Shown: positions 19,697 to 52,461 of the stretch, in pieces
Position numbering within the stretch: the stretch's first letter is position 1
Layout of the letters: each line of letters begins with the position of its first letter
Origin: Flavobacteriales bacterium
Lineage (GTDB): Bacteria > Bacteroidota > Bacteroidia > CAIKAF01
Assembly: GCA_044376575.1 (NCBI GenBank)
Contig: JBILKR010000001.1
Span: 109,492-173,491, forward strand
Direction of reading: 5' to 3'
Length of the DNA: 64,000 nt
Program-made: the position numbers and the translations under genes
Notes under the pieces: generated by a model
What the model was told of the DNA's origin: nothing
The model's input: only the letters and a program-made list of their open reading frames with translations
Databases searched by the model: none

Positions 19697-22600
19697 ATGA
19701 ATAAATTTAAAACACTGAACATTGTTTTTGGCTGGATAAGTTTTGCTGTCGCCATGATAACCTATGGTTTAACCATTGAACCAACGTCGAGTTTTTGGGA
19801 CTGTGGAGAGTTTATCAGTACAGCGTATAAACTTCAGGTAGGTCACCCGCCAGGAGCACCTTTGTTTGCTATGATGGCCAGGGTTTTTACAGTTTTCGCC
19901 GGAGACGATGTAAGCAAAGTGGCGATGATGGTGAATATGTTCTCAGCATTTGTTAGTGCGCTTACCATCGCCTTTTTGTTCTGGAGCATCACTGCGCTGG
20001 TTCAAAAAATATACCGCGACATGGAGCCTCAAAAAGAGTTTCAGTGGGATGGAATGAAAATGTTTACTGCTATTTGCAGCGGATTGTTAGGAGCGTTGGC
20101 TTATACATTCACAGATACATTTTGGTTTTCTGCGGTTGAAGGCGAGGTATATGCCCTTTCGTCTTTGTTTACAGCGGTAGTATTCTGGGCCATTTTAAGA
20201 TGGGAGCAAGTAGCTGATGAACCACACGCTGATCGATGGATTGTATTAATTGCATACCTCATGGGATTATCAATCGGTGTACACTTGTTGAACTTATTAA
20301 CTATTCCTGCGCTGGCCTTTACGTATTATTTCAGAAAATATAAAACAGATACCCGCGGTGTGATTATTACATTTATTACATCTGTATTTGTATTGTTGTT
20401 TATTCAGTACGGTATCATACAACGCGCAGTAGGATTGGCCGGAGTTTTTGATAAGATTTTCGTGAACTCATTTCACATGAACTTTGGTTCAGGAATTATT
20501 TTCTACTTGGTATTTCTTACCGCTGTATTTGCCGGCGGAATCATATACTCGGTAAAAAAGAATATTCCTGCATTGAACCTTTCGCTATGGTCAGCGGCTG
20601 TAATTATTATCGGATATTCTTCTTACGGGATGATTATTACCCGTTCGGTAGCGAATACACCGATGGACGAAAACAATCCGGAAAACGTTTATTCTTTTAT
20701 TTCCTACCTCAATCGCGAGCAGTATGGAGACCGTCCATTATTCAGAGGCCCATTTTATGATGCCAAGGTAATTAAGTCTGAAAAAGGAGACCCTATTTAT
20801 ATACAGGCTTTTGTGGTTAAAAATAAAAAAGGAAAGGCGCAGGAAACATTTACCGTCTTGAGAGAAGCAGAAGCATTTATTGAAAGCCATGAAGACAAAG
20901 CCAATTTAAAAATTGTAAACGAATATGTGCTGAATGGACATAAGCCAGAGTATGTGTATGACCCGAACAGGATTACATTATTTCCGAGAATGCATAGCCC
21001 TGAAAAAAATCACATTGCCGAATATGAATATTGGGCCAACATGAAAAAAGGAGAAAAGCCTGATTTTGGTGATAACATTTTCTTCATGTTCCGGTATCAG
21101 TTTGGATGGATGTACGGTCGTTATTTCATGTGGAATTTTGCCGGAAGAGAAAACGATAATCAAGGCTATGGCGATCCCAATAAAGGGCACTGGATGAGTG
21201 GAATCCCGGCTGTTGATGAGTGGAGCACAGGCATGCCTCAAACCAACCTGCCTGACGAATTGAAAGATAATAAAGCGCGTAACCGCTATTATTTCTTACC
21301 ATTGATATTGGGTTTAATCGGTTTCGTTTTTCAATTGAATAAAGATAAAAAAGCATTTACTGTAGTGGCGCTGTTTTTCTTAATGACAGGACTGGCCACC
21401 GTATTTTATTTGAATCAGCCTCCTGTAGAGCCCCGCGAAAGGGACTATACATTTGCCGGCTCGTTTTATGCATTTGCCATTTGGATTGGACTGGGATTCA
21501 TGGCGTTGATGCATTATATGAAAGATTTGAATAAAAATGATTTAATGATTCCTGCGGTTGGCGCCGGCCTTGGAATTGTTGGCGTTGTATTAGGCTCTGC
21601 TACCGGAAATGCAGGATTTGGATGGATGCTGGTATTTATTTCAGTAATTTATGCCGCATTGATTTATCTGCCGAATGTATTGTATAAAGCGATTAAGCAG
21701 GAATTGATGATCGGCATATTATTTTTCATTATCACGATGGTTTCTGCACCGGTATTGCTTGCAAAAGAAAACTGGGACGACCATACCCGAGCCAAACGAT
21801 ATACGGCGCGAGATACTGCATTCAATTATTTGAATTCATGTGCCCCGAATGCAATTCTCTTTACCAATGGAGATAATGATACCTTCCCATTATGGTATTT
21901 ACAGGAGGTGGAAGGCGTGCGCACCGATGTGCGTGTTGTAAATCTGAGTCTGTTAAATACCGATTGGTATATTAATCAGATGAAGCGCAAGGCTTATGAT
22001 GGAGAGCCGGTTCCTTTTGGGCTGAAAGAAACAGAATACCGACAAGGCACGAGAGATATAGTTTATCTTGACAACTGGCTTGAGGAACAGAATTCTTGTA
22101 TGATTGATAATACCGGAAGAAAGTGTCAGCAGTACTATCGCGTTTCTGATCAGATGAAAAAGATGTTAAAGGGTGGTGAAAGGGTAGATTATTTCCCATC
22201 CAATAAGTTCATCCTTCCAATTGATTCTGCAAAAGTTGTGGATAATGGAACTGTTCCGAAAGGAATGGAAGGTCGAGTGAAAAAATACCTTGCCTGGGAA
22301 TTAAATAAATCATACGTTTTAAAGTCTGAATTAATGGTGTTGGATTTATTGGCCAACTTTAACTGGGATCGCCCTGTGTACTTTGCTGTAACTGTCGGCG
22401 GAAGAAATTATGTAGGCCTTGAAAACAACTTTATGCTTGACGGACTTGCATATCGACTGGTTCCATTCGATACTCGTTCTCACGACGGACAAGACGGAGA
22501 GGTAAATACTGCTGTGATGTATGAAAATTTCATGAAGAAATTCAGATGGGGTAACATTAATGATCCGGAGGTTTACTTAGATGAAACCAACATGAGAATG

Positions 22601-23041
22601 ACCATGAATTTCAGAAGTAATTTTGTACGTCTTGCATCTAAATTACTCATGGAAGGAAAGATTAAGAAAGCGACAGAAGTGCTTGATAAAGCCGAAGAAC
22701 TTATGCCTGATAGTAAAGTGCCATATAATTATTTCACATTAATGATGGCAGATGTTTATATGAAACTGGGAGAAAACGACAAGGCTATTGCATTGCTCAC
22801 TCGATTGAAGGAAAGGTCAGAACAGTGGATTACATATTATGGCCAGGTCGAAAAAATGAGTAAATCATTGCAGGAAGAATTGCAGCGCCATGAAATGGTA
22901 GCTCAGCAATGTCAGGCATTTATTCAAAAGGCGAACGAAGACAAGAATAAGCCTGCTGTGAAAAAACAGAAAAATGCGAATGAAGAAGTCTCACCAGACT
23001 CTTCAACAGCTCCAATCAAGGATAGTGTTGAAGTAAATTAA
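19697..23041 (+). CDS. DUF2723 domain-containing giant membrane protein (GT-C-like) with a C-terminal TPR-like region
   Basis: N-terminal SFWDCGEFISTAYKLQVGHPPGAPLF is the DUF2723 hallmark. It has many TM helices and a helical C-terminus. Confidence 0.7.
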   Translation: MNKFKTLNIVFGWISFAVAMITYGLTIEPTSSFWDCGEFISTAYKLQVGHPPGAPLFAMMARVFTVFAGDDVSKVAMMVNMFSAFVSALTIAFLFWSITALVQKIYRDMEPQKEFQWDGMKMFTAICSGLLGALAYTFTDTFWFSAVEGEVYALSSLFTAVVFWAILRWEQVADEPHADRWIVLIAYLMGLSIGVHLLNLLTIPALAFTYYFRKYKTDTRGVIITFITSVFVLLFIQYGIIQRAVGLAGVFDKIFVNSFHMNFGSGIIFYLVFLTAVFAGGIIYSVKKNIPALNLSLWSAAVIIIGYSSYGMIITRSVANTPMDENNPENVYSFISYLNREQYGDRPLFRGPFYDAKVIKSEKGDPIYIQAFVVKNKKGKAQETFTVLREAEAFIESHEDKANLKIVNEYVLNGHKPEYVYDPNRITLFPRMHSPEKNHIAEYEYWANMKKGEKPDFGDNIFFMFRYQFGWMYGRYFMWNFAGRENDNQGYGDPNKGHWMSGIPAVDEWSTGMPQTNLPDELKDNKARNRYYFLPLILGLIGFVFQLNKDKKAFTVVALFFLMTGLATVFYLNQPPVEPRERDYTFAGSFYAFAIWIGLGFMALMHYMKDLNKNDLMIPAVGAGLGIVGVVLGSATGNAGFGWMLVFISVIYAALIYLPNVLYKAIKQELMIGILFFIITMVSAPVLLAKENWDDHTRAKRYTARDTAFNYLNSCAPNAILFTNGDNDTFPLWYLQEVEGVRTDVRVVNLSLLNTDWYINQMKRKAYDGEPVPFGLKETEYRQGTRDIVYLDNWLEEQNSCMIDNTGRKCQQYYRVSDQMKKMLKGGERVDYFPSNKFILPIDSAKVVDNGTVPKGMEGRVKKYLAWELNKSYVLKSELMVLDLLANFNWDRPVYFAVTVGGRNYVGLENNFMLDGLAYRLVPFDTRSHDGQDGEVNTAVMYENFMKKFRWGNINDPEVYLDETNMRMTMNFRSNFVRLASKLLMEGKIKKATEVLDKAEELMPDSKVPYNYFTLMMADVYMKLGENDKAIALLTRLKERSEQWITYYGQVEKMSKSLQEELQRHEMVAQQCQAFIQKANEDKNKPAVKKQKNANEEVSPDSSTAPIKDSVEVN

Positions 23042-47116: not shown

Positions 47117-47124
47117 TAAATTTG
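47117..47124 (+). promoter_or_regulatory. Candidate -7 box (TAnnTTTG) for the SMC-like operon
   Basis: TAAATTTG ends 24 nt upstream of the ATG at 47149, inside a 200-nt AT-rich intergenic region. Confidence 0.4.
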
Positions 47125-47148
47125 TTACTCGTGTAAAAAATTAAAAGT

Positions 47149-49824
47149 ATGCTTACAAAGCTTGTTATTCTGAATTCAAAAGTTTATGGAAAAGCGGAAG
47201 TCCGTTTTGATGATATTGATTCATTGCAATTGGTTGGTCCCAATAATATTGGTAAAAGTACCCTGATATATGCGTTGAACTTTTTATTTGTGATTGATGG
47301 TTCTAAAATGAGTTTCAGTGGAAACAGAAAAGGCGATAAAGAAACGATTCATCACTACTTCCCGAATCCCAATCAGAGTTATATTCTTTTTGAAATTAAA
47401 AAAACACGCAACTACTGTATTCTTCTTAAGCGAGATGTAGATGGCGAAATTGAATATTATGAATTAGATGCGCCATACAGCGATTCCATGTTTTTTGAAG
47501 GAGATAAAAACACTCAGCGATTATTAAAATTTGAAGAGTTAAAGGCAAGACTTACAGAATTGGGCATTGCGTATTCTCAATATAAAAACAAATCCGAAGT
47601 GTTGAGCGCAGTTTATCAGCGCGGAAGACAAAATGATGCTGCGGTATGGCTTGAAGAAAATGTAAAAACAGACGGACTCACCAATAGTTTTTCAAAAGTT
47701 TATCGATACCTGATTAACTCAAAATTAATCAATAACAAAACGCTGAAGGAAGCATTGATTATTGCAGATAATCGCGAACACGAAGTGTTGAACTTTTCGC
47801 AAAAAAATAAAAAAGACATAAGCGACCTGCTTAAATTAAATGATGAAATTAAAGCCGTAAAGTCTATACAAAAAGAGTTTGAAGTTTTTCGCGAAACGGT
47901 AAATCAGTATAAAGCAAAAACTAAAATTGTTTCTGAATACATCTATGCTTTTAACCATTCGTATGAAAGTACACTGGAAGATATTGAACATCGAATTCTT
48001 AAAAAATTAAATGATATATCGCATTTGCAAAACGATATCGATGGTGTCTTGAAACCGAAGGAACAGGAGTTTAATCAACAGATTGGGGCAAAAAAACAAA
48101 TTATTGCTTTTGCAGAGAAAGAACACCAAACGCTGGTTGAATATCAAAAAAGGGTCGAGGCATTTGAAAAAATTGATTTTCTTCAACAGTCATTAAATAA
48201 CCTGGATGATAAAAGGCGTTCACTTGAACTAAAGCTTACCAAAATTGAAACGCAAAAACTATCATTAAAACAGGTTGAGCAGAAGTTGCAATCCATTCAA
48301 CAGGAAAAAGCAAAACTCGAAACCCAAATTAAAAATTTCGATGAACAATTAATTCACTCGCTGTCTTCAAAACAAGAAACGAAAAAATTATTAAATACTA
48401 TTTTCTCTGAAGAGTTCACCAGTCTGCCGGCTTCATTAATTAAAAAGAAAGTAAGTAAAACCGGGAAAACACTTCAGATTTTTGACGGTGAAATTGCACT
48501 TCCGGAAAAAATGGAGCTAAAAGATCTCCCATCTGTAGATGTATTGAAAACTGAATTAAATGAAGTTAAAGCGGAAGAAAAAGAATACAAAGAATTACAA
48601 TCACTGATCTCAAATATTGAATCCGGTAAAAAACAATTATCAGATACACGCACAGAGATACAAGAAGTACTCGAAAAAATTAAAGAAGTGGAGGCTTTGC
48701 CAGCACTTCAGAAAAAAGTAAAAGAGAAAGAAGCAGAAATTAAATCACTACAACAAGAGAGAATTGCACTGGAACGTGATTTGAAAAAACTGCTCGAAGA
48801 CATGGTCGAAAAGGCAGAAGCGCTGAAAGGCGAACATGAAGGAAAAATTAAAATGGAGCAACGCCGCGATTTGTTAAGACAACGTAAACTGGAATTGGAA
48901 ATCATCGGAATCGAACCCCTTGAATATACAACAAATGAAAGTTTAGACCAGGTATTCGAAAAAATACAGTTATACAACAAAGACCGTGAAATTCTGAAAG
49001 CGGGAAAAGATAGCAAGTTTGACTTACTTCGATTTAAATTACACAACGCAATTTCAGACGAAGAAGAATTTATCAAATTCGTGGAAGAAGAAATTGCATG
49101 TATTCACGATAAGGAGAAAAGTATTGAAGGCTTGTTACAAAGCATTTCTACACAGTTTGCCAATCCTGCGTTTAACTTGTTCAGAAGATATCAGGAGTTC
49201 AAAGAATTCATGTATTCAAGGTTTAATCAAAAACTTTCAAAAATCAGAATTTCGAATATTGAAGACCTTCGCATTGAAATCGTAGATAATCAAAAGATCA
49301 TAGGTGAAATCAAAAAAATCAGTGCCATTCAGGATTTTACAGGACAGCTGATGTTTGAGTTTGATCAAAGTGAAAACCTTCAGGTGTTAAATCACTATCT
49401 GGATACCGGTAAAAAAATCTCTTTTGATGAATTGTTTGACATTGAACTTCAGTTAACGATTAAGGGCGAAAATAAAAAAGTTGACTTAAAAGATCAGGTT
49501 GAATCTGATGGAACCGACCGTATGATTCGTCTGGTGATTATCATGGCGGTAATTAACAGGCTTGCACTTAGTGACGAATTAAACCGGGTAGTATTGTTTA
49601 TTGATGAGATTGGAACCATCGATGAACACAACCGTCCAGAGTTGGTAAAATTCTGTCGCGAACATCACTTCATTCCCATCTTTGCAGCACCACAGGCATT
49701 TGATGGATTTGACAAATATTATTTCATCATCCGACAGGCTGGAAAAATTAATGTTGGCGAGCGCCATGCTGTAATTAGTCAGCACAGAAGTCCGGCCGGA
49801 ATTTCTTCTAATGAATCAAAATAA
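47149..49824 (+). CDS. SMC-like coiled-coil ABC ATPase of the MukB/MksB/JetC type (compact, 891 aa)
   Basis: Walker A is VGPNNIGKST (aa 29-38). About 600 aa are K/E/L/Q heptad-rich, interrupted by a ~70-aa non-coil segment around aa 401-467. Signature-like motif is QVESDGT. Walker B is VVLFIDEIGTID (aa 814-). This is followed by HHFIPIFAAPQ, which resembles the MukB-type LIIAAPE motif. Confidence 0.65.
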   Translation: MLTKLVILNSKVYGKAEVRFDDIDSLQLVGPNNIGKSTLIYALNFLFVIDGSKMSFSGNRKGDKETIHHYFPNPNQSYILFEIKKTRNYCILLKRDVDGEIEYYELDAPYSDSMFFEGDKNTQRLLKFEELKARLTELGIAYSQYKNKSEVLSAVYQRGRQNDAAVWLEENVKTDGLTNSFSKVYRYLINSKLINNKTLKEALIIADNREHEVLNFSQKNKKDISDLLKLNDEIKAVKSIQKEFEVFRETVNQYKAKTKIVSEYIYAFNHSYESTLEDIEHRILKKLNDISHLQNDIDGVLKPKEQEFNQQIGAKKQIIAFAEKEHQTLVEYQKRVEAFEKIDFLQQSLNNLDDKRRSLELKLTKIETQKLSLKQVEQKLQSIQQEKAKLETQIKNFDEQLIHSLSSKQETKKLLNTIFSEEFTSLPASLIKKKVSKTGKTLQIFDGEIALPEKMELKDLPSVDVLKTELNEVKAEEKEYKELQSLISNIESGKKQLSDTRTEIQEVLEKIKEVEALPALQKKVKEKEAEIKSLQQERIALERDLKKLLEDMVEKAEALKGEHEGKIKMEQRRDLLRQRKLELEIIGIEPLEYTTNESLDQVFEKIQLYNKDREILKAGKDSKFDLLRFKLHNAISDEEEFIKFVEEEIACIHDKEKSIEGLLQSISTQFANPAFNLFRRYQEFKEFMYSRFNQKLSKIRISNIEDLRIEIVDNQKIIGEIKKISAIQDFTGQLMFEFDQSENLQVLNHYLDTGKKISFDELFDIELQLTIKGENKKVDLKDQVESDGTDRMIRLVIIMAVINRLALSDELNRVVLFIDEIGTIDEHNRPELVKFCREHHFIPIFAAPQAFDGFDKYYFIIRQAGKINVGERHAVISQHRSPAGISSNESK

Positions 49825-51024
49825 TTGGATATGCAAGGAGTAGAACCGATTACCATATTGCGCTTTCTTACCAATCATTTTGAAGTGGTAAAAGAGTTGT
49901 ATGAAATTCAGACGAATGATGGACTTATTCGCAAAGAGCAATTTCATGAAACAATTAAGAACAGCGGATCAGAAATTACGCAGCAGTTTTATGATTATAA
50001 AATCATTAAAACCGTTGGCGAAGATGTTGAGATGCGAAAAGTTTTTGTGGATCTCTTGTCTTTTATTTTGGTGGAATTTCGTCCGATACTTCCCGAATCC
50101 ATCGAAAAATATTACGGGGTTATTCATGAACTCTTCAGAAAAATAAAAACGGGAGAAGCCGCCGATCGTATGATCATGGAAGCCCGCATCGAAGAACTTT
50201 CAGAACAGATCAAGGAATTTGTAGAGCAAATTGAAAAAAACACTGTTCGACTATTAAGTGAATCGCGCGAATTAAAGGCAAATCAGGAAAAAATTGACTA
50301 TCGTCAAAAACTTCATAAAGCATCATTTTGGATTGACTATTACATCATCCCGTTAAATAAAATTCTGGATGTAAATAATCAGCTTTCAATTGCATATAAA
50401 CTGGCTGAAGTGGCCGAATACGTTAATCATAAACGACTGGTATATCCGGATGAAAAAATTCGTCTTCGTTTTGAAAAGATGTATTATCAACTGGTTCAAA
50501 CCAATGATGATTTAATTCGAAATTCAAAAATCCTCACCAATGAGTTGTTGCCGCTGATTGAGCGTATCCGAACCGAATCTACAATTCTTGCAGGATGGAT
50601 ACAGTTCCTTAAAAATCCGTTCCGCCACGAAACACCAGAGATGTTGAAAGAGTTTTCGCCCAGTGTATATTCGAATGACATGTACTATAACACCAAAGAA
50701 TTTTTTGAGCAGTTTGATGTACAGGATGAAGTAATTTTTGACAGCGATGGCGAAGATGTGGACAAATGGATTTACAATAAAGCATTCTATAAAGAAAGAT
50801 TGTTGAGCCAACTTCCGGTAGAAAATTTTTTCGATTGGATGCAATCACAAATCAAACAAGAGTTTGGAGAGGCCGATACTGAAAAGCTATTTACACTTGC
50901 CAGCCTTGTGTTTGAAGAAGATTTAAAAGTCGAATTTTCTGAAGCCAATCAATACATCGAAACAGAAACATCAAAATTTAAAGTACCAAAAATTAAAATA
51001 GAACAAGATGGTTTACCCGAGTAA
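49825..51024 (+). CDS. All-helical hypothetical protein in kleisin (MksF/JetA-like) position
   Basis: Starts directly at the stop of the ATPase gene (TTG 49825 or ATG 49831). It has a central coiled segment, ARIEELSEQIKEFVEQIEKNTVRLLSESRELKANQEKI. No catalytic motif was recognised. Confidence 0.35.
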   Translation: MDMQGVEPITILRFLTNHFEVVKELYEIQTNDGLIRKEQFHETIKNSGSEITQQFYDYKIIKTVGEDVEMRKVFVDLLSFILVEFRPILPESIEKYYGVIHELFRKIKTGEAADRMIMEARIEELSEQIKEFVEQIEKNTVRLLSESRELKANQEKIDYRQKLHKASFWIDYYIIPLNKILDVNNQLSIAYKLAEVAEYVNHKRLVYPDEKIRLRFEKMYYQLVQTNDDLIRNSKILTNELLPLIERIRTESTILAGWIQFLKNPFRHETPEMLKEFSPSVYSNDMYYNTKEFFEQFDVQDEVIFDSDGEDVDKWIYNKAFYKERLLSQLPVENFFDWMQSQIKQEFGEADTEKLFTLASLVFEEDLKVEFSEANQYIETETSKFKVPKIKIEQDGLPE

Positions 51025-51571
51025 TCATAGAACAATCGTTGAAGATTTAATGAAAGGAAAGTTTGTGCTTTCTGCAGAAAAGCATTTTGAATCATTAAAA
51101 AACAATGAAGAATTTTATCAGCAGTTTTTTCAGGAATCGTTTGGCCTTGCATTGCGCATTCAAGCCGAATATGCATTTCTGATTTCTACAGTTACCAACG
51201 AAACACTTTCTAAATCTATCAGTATATTTTTTGCAGTGTTGTGTTATGAACTCGATAAGGACGGAAAGAATTTTATGGATCAGTTGCAATATAACGAGTT
51301 TGACATGGATACCATTGAACGGTATTTTCAAAACACCTCCTATATTGATTTGGTGAAGGCAACAAAACAATTGGAAGACGAAGAAAAACGTAAAACACTC
51401 ATTGAAACGATGCGCCGCAGAAACATCATTGAAAGAACCGGTGAAGATCGTTTTATATTTACTTCTGCATATAAAGTGTTTACGGAGTTCGCTCTTGAAC
51501 TGGTGCGTAAGAAAAGAGAAGAGCGTGCGTCAGAAGAAGCTGAAAAACAAATTGACATCTGGAAAGAATAA
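51008..51571 (+). CDS. MksE/JetB-like (DUF4194-like, KITE-type winged-helix) protein
   Basis: LMKGKFVLSAEKHFESL...FFQESFGLALRIQAEYAFLIS...SISIFFAVLCYEL...RRRNIIERTGEDRFIFTSAYKVF parallels the DUF4194 pattern (LLKG..., GLEL...EGYAFL, LL.VLLR, GFL.R...Y). It overlaps the preceding ORF by 17 nt. Confidence 0.5.
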   Translation: MVYPSNHRTIVEDLMKGKFVLSAEKHFESLKNNEEFYQQFFQESFGLALRIQAEYAFLISTVTNETLSKSISIFFAVLCYELDKDGKNFMDQLQYNEFDMDTIERYFQNTSYIDLVKATKQLEDEEKRKTLIETMRRRNIIERTGEDRFIFTSAYKVFTEFALELVRKKREERASEEAEKQIDIWKE

Positions 51572-51573
51572 AA

Positions 51574-52461
51574 ATGAAAAAAAATCTTCAACTCATTGTT
51601 TTTATTTTCTTTTTTCTTTTTAACGGAAGAAGCATTGCACAGTCTTTCACGGAAAGTTTTGAAAATGTTGACAGTCTGTTGAGCAATGGATGGTATCAAA
51701 CCAATAATTCTGAGCCCATAGGAACAGGAACGTGGAGACAAGACAATGGAAATTTTACAGCACACAGCGGATCGCCCAACTCTTCAATAATCTGTGATTA
51801 TTCAAGTGTTGCCGGGTCGGGAAATATTAGCCATTGGTTGTTTACTCCGGTTATTAATTTTTATGCGGGTGATACGTTGTTTTTCTGGACGAGATCTTAT
51901 GCAAATAATTATTACGCTGATCGATTGGAAATACGCGCATCCATAACAGGCGCAACAATTAATGTGGGCAATGATCAATTTTCAACCGGTCAGTTTACAG
52001 AATTACTTTATACAATTAATCCAACATTAGATACGACCTTTTCAGCCTATCCGCTGACATGGAAAAAATATACGCTTCCTGTTTCTTCTGTGATGGCAGG
52101 GAATTCAGGACGCATAGCTTTTCGTTATTTTGTGGAGAACGGCGGAGCTGATGGTGTGAATGGTTCTACCATTGCCCTCGACGATCTGTATTACAAGTCG
52201 AACGAACCAATGTCAACACAAACGGAGGTTATTTTAAATGCAAATATATTTCCGAATCCCGCTTCTACTTTTATTACAGTTCAGTTGAATACAAATGCAA
52301 CATATACCATGTCTAATCTTTTGGGAGAATTTGTTTCTACAGGAATATTGAATAACGGAGAAAATAAATTAGACCTTTCTTCATATCCAAGCGGAATATA
52401 TTTGCTCTCATTTTTCGATCAAAATCAACAGATTCATACGCAGCGCATCATTGTAAATTAA
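51574..52461 (+). CDS. Choice-of-anchor J-like secreted protein with a T9SS type-A C-terminal sorting domain
   Basis: Has a signal peptide. Motifs are FTESFENVDSLLSNGWYQTNNSEPIGTGTW and HWLFTP. C-terminus is IFPNPASTFITVQL...GIYLLSF. Confidence 0.7.
   Translation: MKKNLQLIVFIFFFLFNGRSIAQSFTESFENVDSLLSNGWYQTNNSEPIGTGTWRQDNGNFTAHSGSPNSSIICDYSSVAGSGNISHWLFTPVINFYAGDTLFFWTRSYANNYYADRLEIRASITGATINVGNDQFSTGQFTELLYTINPTLDTTFSAYPLTWKKYTLPVSSVMAGNSGRIAFRYFVENGGADGVNGSTIALDDLYYKSNEPMSTQTEVILNANIFPNPASTFITVQLNTNATYTMSNLLGEFVSTGILNNGENKLDLSSYPSGIYLLSFFDQNQQIHTQRIIVN

What the first reader, a model, noticed from the sequence alone, without database searches (positions are those of the whole stretch)
47117..51571. 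Compact MukBEF/MksBEF/Wadjet-like three-gene operon with permuted order and no nuclease partner
Three co-directional ORFs are packed without spacers. ORF2 begins at the base after the ORF1 stop (TTG 49825, ATG 49831). ORF3 overlaps ORF2 by 17 nt. ORF1 has an N-terminal Walker A, about 600 aa of coiled coil and a C-terminal head (VVLFIDEIGTID...HHFIPIFAAPQ...YYFIIRQ). That head resembles the MukB/MksB/JetC type (E. coli MukB reads ...LDEAARLD...LIIAAPENI...TYKLVRK, from memory) rather than Smc/Rad50/RecN. ORF3 carries the DUF4194 (MksE/JetB) pattern, and ORF2 is an all-helical protein in the kleisin slot. Described relatives are ordered F-E-B(-G) (mukFEB, mksFEB, jetABCD) with ATPases of roughly 1100-1500 aa. 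Here the order is B-F-E and the ATPase is only 891 aa. No Toprim/DUF2220 JetD/MksG-type gene occurs anywhere in the window; the flanks are gldBC plus an M23 peptidase on one side and a T9SS cargo gene plus comF on the other. Bacteroidota are generally served by Smc-ScpAB, so this looks like an accessory SMC-like module. It could be a nuclease-less or trans-acting DNA-surveillance (anti-plasmid/phage) system, or a novel condensin. An alternative reading is a Lamassu-like arrangement (SMC LmuB plus small LmuC plus effector), with ORF2 as an unrecognised effector.
Basis: partly seen in the sequence, partly recalled or inferred. Interest (0 to 1): 0.85.

Follow-up and report, generated by a model that had tools for sequence, protein, structure and literature searches.

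The report
Nuclease-less, permuted Wadjet-type SMC operon
Three adjacent genes encode a small DNA-looping machine of the MukBEF/Wadjet family that has lost the DNA-cutting partner a few close relatives still carry, yet is strictly conserved among core genes of uncultured Bacteroidota, so it probably now does something other than cutting plasmids.

Summary
Three packed, co-directional genes encode an 891-aa SMC-like ATPase (B), a 397-aa kleisin-like protein (F) and a 187-aa KITE protein (E, Pfam MksE, E 1e-20). The predicted folds match MukB best and then JetC (B), and MukF/JetA (F). The B-F-E order recurs in at least 67 of 80 related Bacteroidota loci. It is absent from a published catalogue of about 870 Wadjet-group operons.

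The nearest outgroup is an unannotated compact F-E-B-G system with a short JetD-like Toprim nuclease, found on plasmids and in defence islands. Inside the Bacteroidota clade, three loci carry B-G-F-E. One B-F-E locus keeps a 47-residue relic of G exactly between B and F. So the trio arose from a permuted Wadjet-like ancestor by loss of the nuclease.

It is not decaying. dN/dS is 0.002-0.07, the ATPase motifs are invariant, synteny with housekeeping genes is stable, and the neighbourhood is almost free of defence genes. The nuclease-bearing relative L093 has defence-type neighbours.

The most likely function is a domesticated, nuclease-independent loop-extruding complex for chromosome organisation. 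A nuclease encoded elsewhere, or nuclease-free silencing of mobile DNA, is not excluded. The Lamassu reading is rejected. This is a new variant of a known kind.

The parts
47117..47124 (+). Putative Bacteroidota-type -7 promoter box TAAATTTG, 24 nt upstream of the ORF1 start, in the 203-nt divergent intergenic region
   Evidence: Sequence read directly. The match to the TAnnTTTG consensus rests on my own knowledge of Bacteroidota promoters and was not tested. The sigma-70 scan is uninformative here.
47149..49824 (+). B: SMC-like ABC ATPase of MukB/MksB/JetC type, 891 aa (N-head 1-210, arm 218-395, hinge about 396-462, arm 463-696, C-head 704-868)
   Evidence: The AF2 model has SMC topology. 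The top 4 Foldseek matches are MukB (E 1.6e-15 to 1.5e-13); JetC follows at 1e-8 to 1e-5. hhalign aligns the N-head to E. coli MukB residues 9-264 (E 1.5e-4). Family members pass Pfam DUF3584. More than 740 full-length homologues exist.
47236..47262 (+). Walker A / P-loop GPNNIGKST (residues 30-38)
   Evidence: Invariant or nearly invariant in 32- and 41-sequence alignments; coordinates verified.
48334..48534 (+). Small apical 'hinge' (residues 396-462) with invariant FDG (445-447); no cysteines, so no Rad50-type zinc hook
   Evidence: AF2 shows a globular break between the two arm helices, with two short strands. The cysteine count in the apex is zero.
49501..49518 (+). ABC signature-like motif ESDGTD (residues 785-790)
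   Evidence: Residues Q783 to M792 are invariant in the family alignment.
49588..49623 (+). Walker B VVLFIDE (catalytic E820) followed by the D-loop IGTID; the H-loop His839 lies at 49663-49665
   Evidence: F817, D819, E820, T823, I824, D825 and H839 are invariant.
49831..51024 (+). F: kleisin-like subunit, 397 aa (N-terminal winged helix 1-70, helical bundle 88-261, disordered linker 272-317, C-terminal winged-helix-like domain 317-390)
   Evidence: AF2 model. The six best Foldseek matches among 350,542 PDB chains are MukF or JetA. hhalign to the PF28010 family, the first gene of F-E-B-G operons, gives probability 99.8%, E 1.1e-29 over 383 columns. There is no Pfam, PADLOC, NCBIfam or PDB sequence hit.
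51008..51571 (+). E: KITE subunit MksE, 187 aa; overlaps F by 17 nt
   Evidence: Pfam PF21980 MksE, E 9.7e-21, 75 bits, covering profile positions 2-161 of 163. The same label appears on independent gene calls and on the E genes of the sister and B-G-F-E operons.

Best explanation
SHOWN. The three genes encode the ATPase (B), kleisin (F) and KITE (E) subunits of a MukBEF/Wadjet-group SMC complex. They belong to a distinct, compact Bacteroidota lineage with gene order B-(G)-F-E. The window carries the nuclease-less form. It arose from a four-gene B-G-F-E ancestor by deletion of G, a short JetD-like Toprim nuclease. The trio is kept under very strong purifying selection in core-chromosome contexts.

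INFERRED, by analogy with solved MukBEF and JetABC complexes. B dimerises through its small hinge. ATP binding engages the two heads. F bridges the neck of one B and the cap of the other, and may pair two complexes through its N-terminal winged helix. E dimers sit on the F linker. The ring entraps DNA and extrudes loops, using arms of only about 26-34 nm.

MOST LIKELY FUNCTION, inferred with about 0.4-0.45 probability on its own. Without G there is no cleavage. The complex has been domesticated for a nuclease-independent role in chromosome folding or segregation. This would parallel the proposed origin of MukBEF and of Pseudomonas aeruginosa MksBEF from Wadjet by loss of JetD.
For: Identity:
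- E is Pfam MksE, E 9.7e-21.
- B has SMC topology. Its best folds are MukB, E 1.6e-15 to 1.5e-13, then JetC. Its N-head aligns to MukB 9-264. Relatives pass DUF3584. The ATPase motifs are invariant.
- F has a kleisin layout. Its top six folds are MukF or JetA. It is homologous end to end with the first gene of F-E-B-G operons, E 1.1e-29.

Lineage:
- B-F-E occurs in at least 67 of 80 loci, and no fourth gene recurs.
- The sister F-E-B-G operons carry a JetD-like fourth gene (PADLOC JetD1, E 1.7e-9) on plasmids and in defence islands.
- B-G-F-E occurs in L092, L093 and L079. Against the window, B is 45-51% identical, F 41% and E 47%.
- L079 is nested beside a plain B-F-E locus in the tree.
- A 47-residue relic of the G C-terminus lies in the B-F spacer of L067, domain E 1.6e-10.

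Maintenance and context:
- dN/dS is 0.002-0.07 for all three genes in six close pairs.
- No PADLOC hits occur elsewhere in the window, and the neighbours are housekeeping genes.
- Only about 4-5 of 133 flank proteins from 29 B-F-E loci hit any defence family.
- Synteny within sub-clades is stable; in 25 loci the trio follows a MiaB-like gene.
- The family is absent from viral contigs.
- In contrast, the B-G-F-E locus L093 is flanked by a DrmD-like helicase and a kinase-AAA defence-type gene.

Precedent: reviews propose that MukBEF and MksBEF arose from Wadjet by loss of JetD (PMC10586767; PMC7617805).
Against: - There is no experimental evidence, and every relative is a MAG or metagenomic contig.
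- Whether the same genomes encode Smc-ScpAB, or a G homologue elsewhere, could not be examined. Only 64 kb of this genome and up to 8 kb on each side of the other loci (less where a contig ends) were visible.
- The link of F to MukF/JetA rests on marginal Foldseek statistics (best E 1.4e-3, TM 0.16-0.28), a model of only moderate confidence (pLDDT 70.6), and operon position. No sequence profile of JetA, MksF or MukF matches it.
- The window's own B does not reach the DUF3584 threshold. Its best PADLOC hits are weak AriA and LmuB N-terminal matches, not JetC.
- No multimer model was possible, so subunit contacts are inferred.
- Low dN/dS and housekeeping synteny are compatible with a conserved immune function as well.
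Confidence: 0.6

Rival explanations
1. It is still a plasmid-restricting Wadjet, and the nuclease is encoded elsewhere. B-F-E senses and extrudes small circular DNA, and a JetD-like Toprim protein from a distant locus is recruited to cut it.
For: Family members with an adjacent G exist, so the complex is, or recently was, able to work with such a nuclease. Genes of the system tolerate separation: B is split from F-E by 1.2-4.5 kb in L007, L011, L050 and L075, and F-E are absent from the 8 kb downstream of B in L010 and L029. Whole genomes could not be searched.
Against: No G-like sequence was found in the 64-kb window or in the flanks (up to 8 kb on each side) of the B-F-E loci, apart from L079 and the L067 relic. 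In all G-bearing relatives, G is translationally coupled inside or next to the operon. The L067 relic shows G being destroyed, not relocated. B-F-E loci lie outside defence islands.
Confidence: 0.2
2. It is a nuclease-independent immune complex. B-F-E entraps and compacts or silences small circular or foreign DNA without cutting it, as Smc5/6 restricts episomal viral DNA.
For: It descends from a Wadjet-type plasmid-restriction system. The short arms and compact size are shared with the plasmid- and island-borne sister systems. SMC-based silencing without cleavage has precedent (review PMC10586767).
Against: Stable housekeeping synteny, near absence of defence neighbours and dN/dS of 0.002-0.07 are more typical of core functions than of immune genes. 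None of these observations excludes this rival, and no direct evidence points either way.
Confidence: 0.2
3. It is a decaying remnant of a Wadjet system that lost its nuclease and is now functionless.
For: G has been lost. One locus keeps only a fragment of G, and some loci have B separated from F-E.
Against: All three ORFs are intact in the B-F-E loci examined. The Walker A, signature, Walker B, D-loop and H-loop motifs are invariant. dN/dS is 0.002-0.07. The trio persists across a clade whose members have diverged to about 50% identity.
Confidence: 0.03
4. It is a Lamassu-like system: ORF1 is LmuB, ORF3 a small LmuC-like subunit, and ORF2 an unrecognised effector.
For: ORF1 gives a weak PADLOC LmuB hit (E 1.5e-6, N-head plus coiled coil), which is better than its JetC hit (E 0.0019).
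Against: ORF3 is Pfam MksE, a KITE protein, with E 9.7e-21. ORF2 folds like MukF/JetA and has no enzymatic domain. ORF2 is homologous to the first gene of operons that carry JetD-like nucleases. ORF1's best folds are MukB and JetC. No LmuA-type effector domain is present.
Confidence: 0.02

Closest known systems
Unnamed compact F-E-B-G Wadjet-like systems (PF28010 kleisin-like, PF21980 MksE, PF28007 ATPase, plus a short JetD-like Toprim protein of about 230-320 aa). Examples: Salinibacter ruber pSR76, Polaromonas naphthalenivorans pPNAP02, Pseudomonas amygdali pMPPla107, and Thiolinea and Verrucomicrobia MAGs
   Same: The three core subunits are homologous and of the same small sizes: F about 400-436 aa, E about 180-228 aa, and B about 880-950 aa in all but one example. 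The F families align end to end (hhalign E 1.1e-29). The B N-heads are 37% identical (E 4e-18). The E proteins are all PF21980.
   Different: The sister systems keep the canonical order F-E-B-G and the nuclease. They lie on plasmids or in defence islands. The window has the order B-F-E, no nuclease and a core-genome context. Identity in F is only about 15-20%. RefSeq annotates all of these genes as hypothetical, and none has been characterised.
Wadjet / JetABCD (also MksBEFG, EptABCD), an anti-plasmid SMC nuclease
   Same: The subunit logic is the same: an SMC-like ATPase, a kleisin and a KITE protein. Solved JetC and JetA structures are among the best structural matches. Relatives in the same clade carry a JetD-like Toprim gene.
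   Different: The window has no JetD. PADLOC models for JetA, JetB and JetD give no hit, and the JetC model gives only a weak N-terminal match (E 0.0019). B is 891 aa, against about 965-1475 aa for the catalogue entries I read. The orders B-F-E and B-G-F-E are absent from the catalogue of about 870 operons, which lists FEBG 609, GFEB 155, FEB 93, BEFG 11 and BEF 1. The context is not a defence island.
Pseudomonas aeruginosa MksBEF, a nuclease-less chromosomal condensin
   Same: It is a Muk-like trio without a nuclease, thought to derive from Wadjet by loss of JetD (PMC10586767). It acts in chromosome segregation alongside Smc-ScpAB (10.1101/2020.05.18.101659). It is the best functional analogue for the reading proposed here.
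   Different: Its order is F-E-B and it belongs to a different phylum. A direct sequence relationship could not be tested, because no P. aeruginosa sequence was available in the tools. Nuclease loss here is an independent event, documented by the B-G-F-E relatives and the L067 relic.
Escherichia coli MukBEF
   Same: MukB chains are the best structural matches for B and MukF chains for F. It has no nuclease and a housekeeping role. The N-head aligns by profile.
   Different: MukB is 1486 aa with arms of about 50 nm, and the order is mukF-E-B. No Pfam MukB, MukF or MukE hit was obtained, and hhalign to MukF and MukE gives nothing. MukBEF partners such as MatP were not sought.

Membership tests
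MukBEF/MksBEF/Wadjet group of SMC complexes | SMC-like ABC ATPase of MukB/JetC type: split head, antiparallel coiled-coil arm, hinge | tested here: met
   AF2 topology. The top Foldseek matches are MukB (E 1.6e-15) and JetC is also found. hhalign aligns the N-head to MukB 9-264. Family members pass DUF3584, although the window protein itself does not reach that threshold.
MukBEF/MksBEF/Wadjet group of SMC complexes | Kleisin of MukF/JetA type (winged helix, helical bundle, linker, C-terminal winged helix) | tested here: met
   Met at the level of fold and operon context. The layout fits, the six best PDB matches are MukF or JetA with marginal E-values, and it is homologous to the first gene of JetD-bearing F-E-B-G operons. 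It is not met at the sequence-profile level: there is no JetA, DUF3375 or MukF hit.
MukBEF/MksBEF/Wadjet group of SMC complexes | KITE subunit (MukE/MksE/JetB) | tested here: met
   Pfam PF21980 MksE, E 9.7e-21, near full length. It is not DUF4194.
MukBEF/MksBEF/Wadjet group of SMC complexes | Canonical gene order F-E-B | tested here: not met
   The order is B-F-E here and in at least 67 related loci. It is absent from the Bürmann 2025 catalogue.
Wadjet defence system (JetABCD) | Adjacent JetD/MksG Toprim nuclease | tested here: not met
   None in the window or in the B-F-E loci. It is present in the relatives L079, L092 and L093, and as a relic in L067.
Wadjet defence system (JetABCD) | Recognition by PADLOC JetA, JetB, JetC and JetD models | tested here: not met
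   Only a weak JetC1 N-terminal hit (E 0.0019). ORF2 and ORF3 give no hits.
Wadjet defence system (JetABCD) | Defence-island or mobile-element context | tested here: not met
   None of the 42 other window ORFs hits PADLOC. About 4-5 of 133 flank proteins in 29 loci do. Housekeeping synteny is stable, and the family is absent from viral contigs.
Wadjet defence system (JetABCD) | Restriction of small circular plasmids | not testable with these tools
   This needs transformation or plasmid-maintenance assays.
Smc-ScpAB | Canonical Smc (TIGR02168) with ScpA and ScpB partners | tested here: not met
   NCBIfam SMC_prok_B gives E 0.99, SMC_N gives E 0.045, and ORF2 and ORF3 have no ScpA or ScpB hits.
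Lamassu (LmuABC) | LmuB SMC-like ATPase with an LmuA effector (and LmuC) | tested here: not met
   Only a weak LmuB hit (E 1.5e-6). There is no effector domain, and the partners are a kleisin and a KITE protein.
Rad50/SbcC | Zinc-hook CxxC apex and an Mre11/SbcD partner | tested here: not met
   There are no cysteines in the apex and no SbcD-like neighbour. Rad50 ranks below MukB in the fold search.

The most novel reading that the evidence does not exclude
This clade records a third, independent domestication of a Wadjet-type plasmid-restriction machine into a core chromosomal SMC complex, in uncultured Bacteroidota. The intermediate stages still exist in nature: B-G-F-E next to defence-type genes, then B-(G relic)-F-E, then a tightly packed B-F-E among housekeeping genes. 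It would also be among the smallest Muk-like SMC complexes known (891-aa ATPase, arms of about 26-34 nm). It may complement or replace Smc-ScpAB in these lineages.
Probability: 0.4. Interest if true: 0.75.

Novelty: new variant of a known kind. Interest (0 to 1): 0.6.

Why it matters
How chromosome-organising SMC complexes and anti-plasmid SMC nucleases evolve into one another is an open question. MukBEF and Pseudomonas MksBEF are thought to derive from Wadjet by nuclease loss, but the intermediates are gone. This Bacteroidota lineage offers a natural series within one clade: nuclease-bearing, nuclease-relic and nuclease-free operons, with contrasting genomic contexts. That makes the transition directly testable by comparative genomics and by reconstitution.

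The work also exposes a whole compact Wadjet-like family, F-E-B-G on plasmids and B-(G)-F-E in Bacteroidota. In every record examined here these genes are annotated as hypothetical, PADLOC v2 lacks matching JetA and JetB models, and the family lies at or outside the size and order filters of the largest published survey. Defence-system censuses therefore probably undercount it.

The very short arms make it an attractive minimal system for structural and single-molecule work on loop extrusion.

Tried and rejected
- Single-sequence and HMM-profile searches of all three proteins against PDB sequences found only coiled-coil noise.
- NCBIfam gave nothing useful.
- hhalign of the F and E family profiles against single E. 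coli MukF and MukE sequences found nothing. These are too divergent and the template is a single sequence.
- A Pfam scan of the 28 most distant F relatives found no family.
I rebuilt the alignments from permitted proteins.
- Petrushenko 2011 (PMC3179180) is not held, so the original MksBEF sizes and orders could not be checked.
- I could not establish whether the core P. aeruginosa MksBEF belongs to the PF28010/PF28007 family.
- Literature searches for MksBEF or MksB together with Bacteroidota terms found no paper describing this family.
- The sigma-70 promoter and terminator scan was uninformative: counts equal the shuffled expectation, and Bacteroidota promoters differ.
- A search for further G relics in the B-F spacers of all loci found only L067.
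- Compositional anomaly was rejected: operon GC is 0.35 against 0.377 for the rest of the window.
- The Lamassu, Rad50/SbcC and Smc-ScpAB readings were rejected (see the membership tests).
Full report
**1. The observation**

Three co-directional ORFs lie at 47149-49824 (891 aa), 49825/49831-51024 (399/397 aa) and 51008-51571 (187 aa).
- The ORF1 stop is followed at once by TTG, with an ATG 6 nt later. ORF2 and ORF3 overlap by 17 nt.
- Independent gene calls on identical metagenomic contigs (JGI 3300044614 and two Logan assemblies) give 891, 397 and 187 aa.
This matches the Bacteroidota -7 promoter consensus (own knowledge) and lies 24 nt upstream of the ATG.
- GC content is unremarkable: 0.35 for the operon against 0.377 for the rest of the window.

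**2. What the proteins are**

ORF3 is the clearest. It matches Pfam PF21980 'Condensin complex protein MksE' at E 9.7e-21 over almost the whole profile. It does not match DUF4194 or the PADLOC JetB models.

ORF1 gives only weak P-loop and SMC_N matches by sequence.
- Its family alignment shows an invariant Walker A (GPNNIGKST), a signature-like ESDGTD, a Walker B (LFIDE), a D-loop and an H-loop histidine.
- The AlphaFold model (pLDDT 72.7) has complete SMC topology: N-head 1-210, arm 218-395, a small hinge at about 396-462 with no cysteines, a returning arm 463-696, and C-head 704-868.
- Foldseek against the PDB ranks four MukB chains first (E 1.6e-15 to 1.5e-13). Rad50 follows (E 9e-10 to 6e-9), then JetC and further MukB chains (1e-8 to 1e-5), interleaved with Smc5/6 and yeast condensin.
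- A profile comparison aligns the N-head with E. coli MukB residues 9-264 (E 1.5e-4).
- Several family members pass the Pfam threshold for DUF3584, the MksB/JetC family.

ORF2 matches no library.
- Its model (pLDDT 70.6) has the kleisin layout: N-terminal winged helix, long helical bundle, disordered linker, C-terminal winged-helix-like domain.
- The six best Foldseek matches among 350,542 chains are all MukF or JetA. The E-values are marginal (best 1.4e-3) and the TM-scores low, as expected for a flexible multi-domain protein.

**3. The family**

ORF1 has more than 740 full-length homologues, all labelled hypothetical and all from Bacteroidota MAGs or metagenomes.
- In 80 genome loci, B is followed by F in 70 and by E in 67, always in the order B-F-E. 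Most of the missing cases are contig ends.
- No fourth gene recurs.
- The B-F spacer is 30 nt or less in 35 of 70 loci.
- Elsewhere unrelated genes have been inserted between B and F, for example a LigB/YgiD-like dioxygenase on the opposite strand. In L010 and L029, F-E are not within the 8 kb downstream of B.
- An exhaustive HMMER search of 1.84 billion representatives with the F profile finds only 133 proteins, and the full-length ones are all about 400 aa. The family is compact and closed.

**4. The nearest outgroup**

The most distant F relatives form a sister family that uniformly carries the recent Pfam accession PF28010. It is homologous to the window's F family from end to end (hhalign probability 99.8%, E 1.1e-29, 383 columns). 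Its genomic contexts show four genes in the canonical order:
- a kleisin-like protein of 407-411 aa;
- MksE (PF21980) of 188-200 aa;
- an ATPase of 903-915 aa (PF28007, weak DUF3584);
- a fourth protein of 287-292 aa.

The fourth protein matches PADLOC JetD models over their C-terminal part (best E 1.7e-9). The ATPases match JetC models. One such operon sits among pAgo, DpnII, AbiE and HEPN genes. The same layout occurs on plasmids of isolates (Salinibacter ruber, Polaromonas, Pseudomonas amygdali, Persicobacter), with every gene annotated as hypothetical. The window's B shares 37% identity with a sister ATPase over the N-head (E 4e-18).

**5. The nuclease within the clade**

I built a profile of the sister G proteins and searched six-frame translations of the window and 83 loci.
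- It hit one place only: directly after B in L079 (E 3.5e-22). The Toprim-type motifs align there (VENKETF, SDYDLVGL).
- L079's ATPase is nested in the tree beside L076, a plain B-F-E locus.
- A metagenome scan with the L079 G protein recovered L092 and L093. These carry a tightly overlapping operon: B (886 aa), G (264 aa), F (402 aa), E (172 aa).
- Their B, F and E are 45%, 41% and 47% identical to the window's proteins over the full length. The two G lineages are 40% identical to each other, about as divergent as their ATPases.
- In L067, a B-F-E locus, a 55-codon stop-to-stop segment in the 430-nt B-F spacer matches the last 47 residues of G (domain E 1.6e-10). This is a relic in exactly the expected position.

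The simplest reading is an ancestral B-G-F-E with repeated loss of G. In the window the excision is clean: B and F abut.

**6. Maintained or decaying, island or core**

- dN/dS between six close pairs of nuclease-less loci is 0.002-0.07 for B, F and E alike.
- The other 42 window ORFs have no PADLOC hit. They include ATP synthase, cytochrome oxidase and isocitrate dehydrogenase.
- Of 133 flanking proteins from 29 diverse B-F-E loci, only about 4-5 match any defence family at E 1e-10 or better.
- Within sub-clades the neighbourhood is stable. In 25 loci the trio follows a MiaB-like methylthiotransferase. In 7 it follows what look like split transketolase genes (judged from N-terminal sequences, not profile-tested).
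- The family has no relatives on viral contigs.
- By contrast, the B-G-F-E operon of L093 is flanked by a DISARM DrmD-like helicase (E 7e-203) and a kinase-AAA protein of the mad6/PD-T4-6/IetA type.

**7. Mechanism**

Shown: subunit identities, the lineage, nuclease loss, and selective maintenance.

Inferred from solved MukBEF and JetABC structures (PMC7617805, PMC10512200):
- B dimerises at the hinge, and ATP engages the heads.
- F bridges neck and cap, and may pair complexes through its N-terminal winged helix.
- E binds the F linker.
- The ring entraps and extrudes DNA.
- The arm helices of about 180-230 residues imply arms of about 26-34 nm, roughly half the length of MukB or Smc arms.

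Without G there can be no Wadjet-style cleavage. I judge a nuclease-independent chromosomal role most likely (about 0.4-0.45). A trans-encoded nuclease (about 0.2) and nuclease-free silencing of mobile DNA (about 0.2) follow. Decay and Lamassu are effectively excluded.

**8. Comparison with what is known**

Nuclease-less members of the Wadjet group are known. Bürmann et al. 2025 state that MukBEF and 'several other Wadjet group members' lack MksG. Reviews derive MukBEF and MksBEF from Wadjet by loss of JetD.

Their catalogue lists the orders FEBG (609), GFEB (155), FEB (93), BEFG (11) and BEF (1), but no BFE or BGFE. Its rules would exclude this family:
- MksB must exceed 890 aa.
- MksF must be 400-1200 aa.
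- The B, F and E hits must be consecutive, with G only at a flank.

I found no paper describing the family. It is therefore a new variant of a known kind, not a new kind.

**9. Limits**

- All relatives are uncultured.
- The presence of Smc-ScpAB, or of a distant G gene, in the same genomes could not be tested.
- No multimer modelling was possible.
- The kleisin assignment rests on fold and context, not on sequence profiles.

Noticed in passing
L085, L087, L088; homologue tables: The precomputed Pfam labels look swapped. PF28010 is shown as 'MksB' but hits the 407-411 aa kleisin-like first gene. PF28007 is shown as 'MksF' but hits the 903-915 aa ABC ATPase, which also has DUF3584. By the usual nomenclature MksB is the ATPase and MksF the kleisin. 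Neither family is in the local Pfam copy.
   Followed up: partly
L090 (Salinibacter ruber pSR76), L091 (Polaromonas pPNAP02), L094 (P. amygdali pMPPla107), L095 (Persicobacter pPP6): A compact four-gene F-E-B-G Wadjet-like system with a short (about 230-320 aa) JetD-like protein is widespread on plasmids of isolates. RefSeq annotates it entirely as hypothetical or 'ATP-binding protein'. For the homologous MAG operons tested (L085, L088), PADLOC v2 JetA and JetB models do not recognise the first two genes, so such systems are probably undercounted in defence censuses.
   Followed up: partly
window 51574-52461 (+): A T9SS cargo gene (signal peptide, Por_Secre_tail) starts 2 nt after the ORF3 stop and is conserved downstream in the two closest relatives (L001 and L002, about 52% identity). 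It may be co-transcribed with the trio despite having no obvious functional link.
   Followed up: partly
L093 1950-4781 (-), 15654-17483 (-), 6341-6898 (+), 12540-13202 (+): The nuclease-bearing B-G-F-E operon has defence-type neighbours: a DISARM DrmD-like SNF2 helicase (E 7e-203) and a protein-kinase-AAA fusion matching mad6/PD-T4-6/IetA. A DnaA-like ATPase domain protein and an EEP-family nuclease lie next to the operon.
   Followed up: partly
L007 10724-11599, L011 6158-7063, L075 10446-11261, L008 10724-11068 (all - strand): In one Flavobacteriales sub-clade, a gene of about 270-300 aa lies antisense between B and F and splits the operon. Its N-terminal motif FFGHGSPMNAIE suggests a LigB/YgiD-type extradiol dioxygenase (not profile-tested).
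   Followed up: no
L003, L008, L028, L004, L022, L027, L054, L056, L074, L078 (record titles): Several MAGs carrying this Bacteroidota-type locus are titled Competibacteraceae, Comamonadaceae, 'Chryseobacterium gleum' or 'Chitinophaga pinensis'. These are probably binning or labelling errors in the public records.
   Followed up: no
window 19697-23041 (+): This 1114-aa ORF might have been taken for an SMC by size. It is instead a TMEM260-like protein O-mannosyltransferase (Pfam E 2e-75). No canonical smc, scpA or scpB is present in the 64-kb window.
   Followed up: yes
window 47117-47124: TAAATTTG, 24 nt upstream of the ORF1 ATG, matches the Bacteroidota -7 promoter consensus TAnnTTTG.
   Followed up: partly
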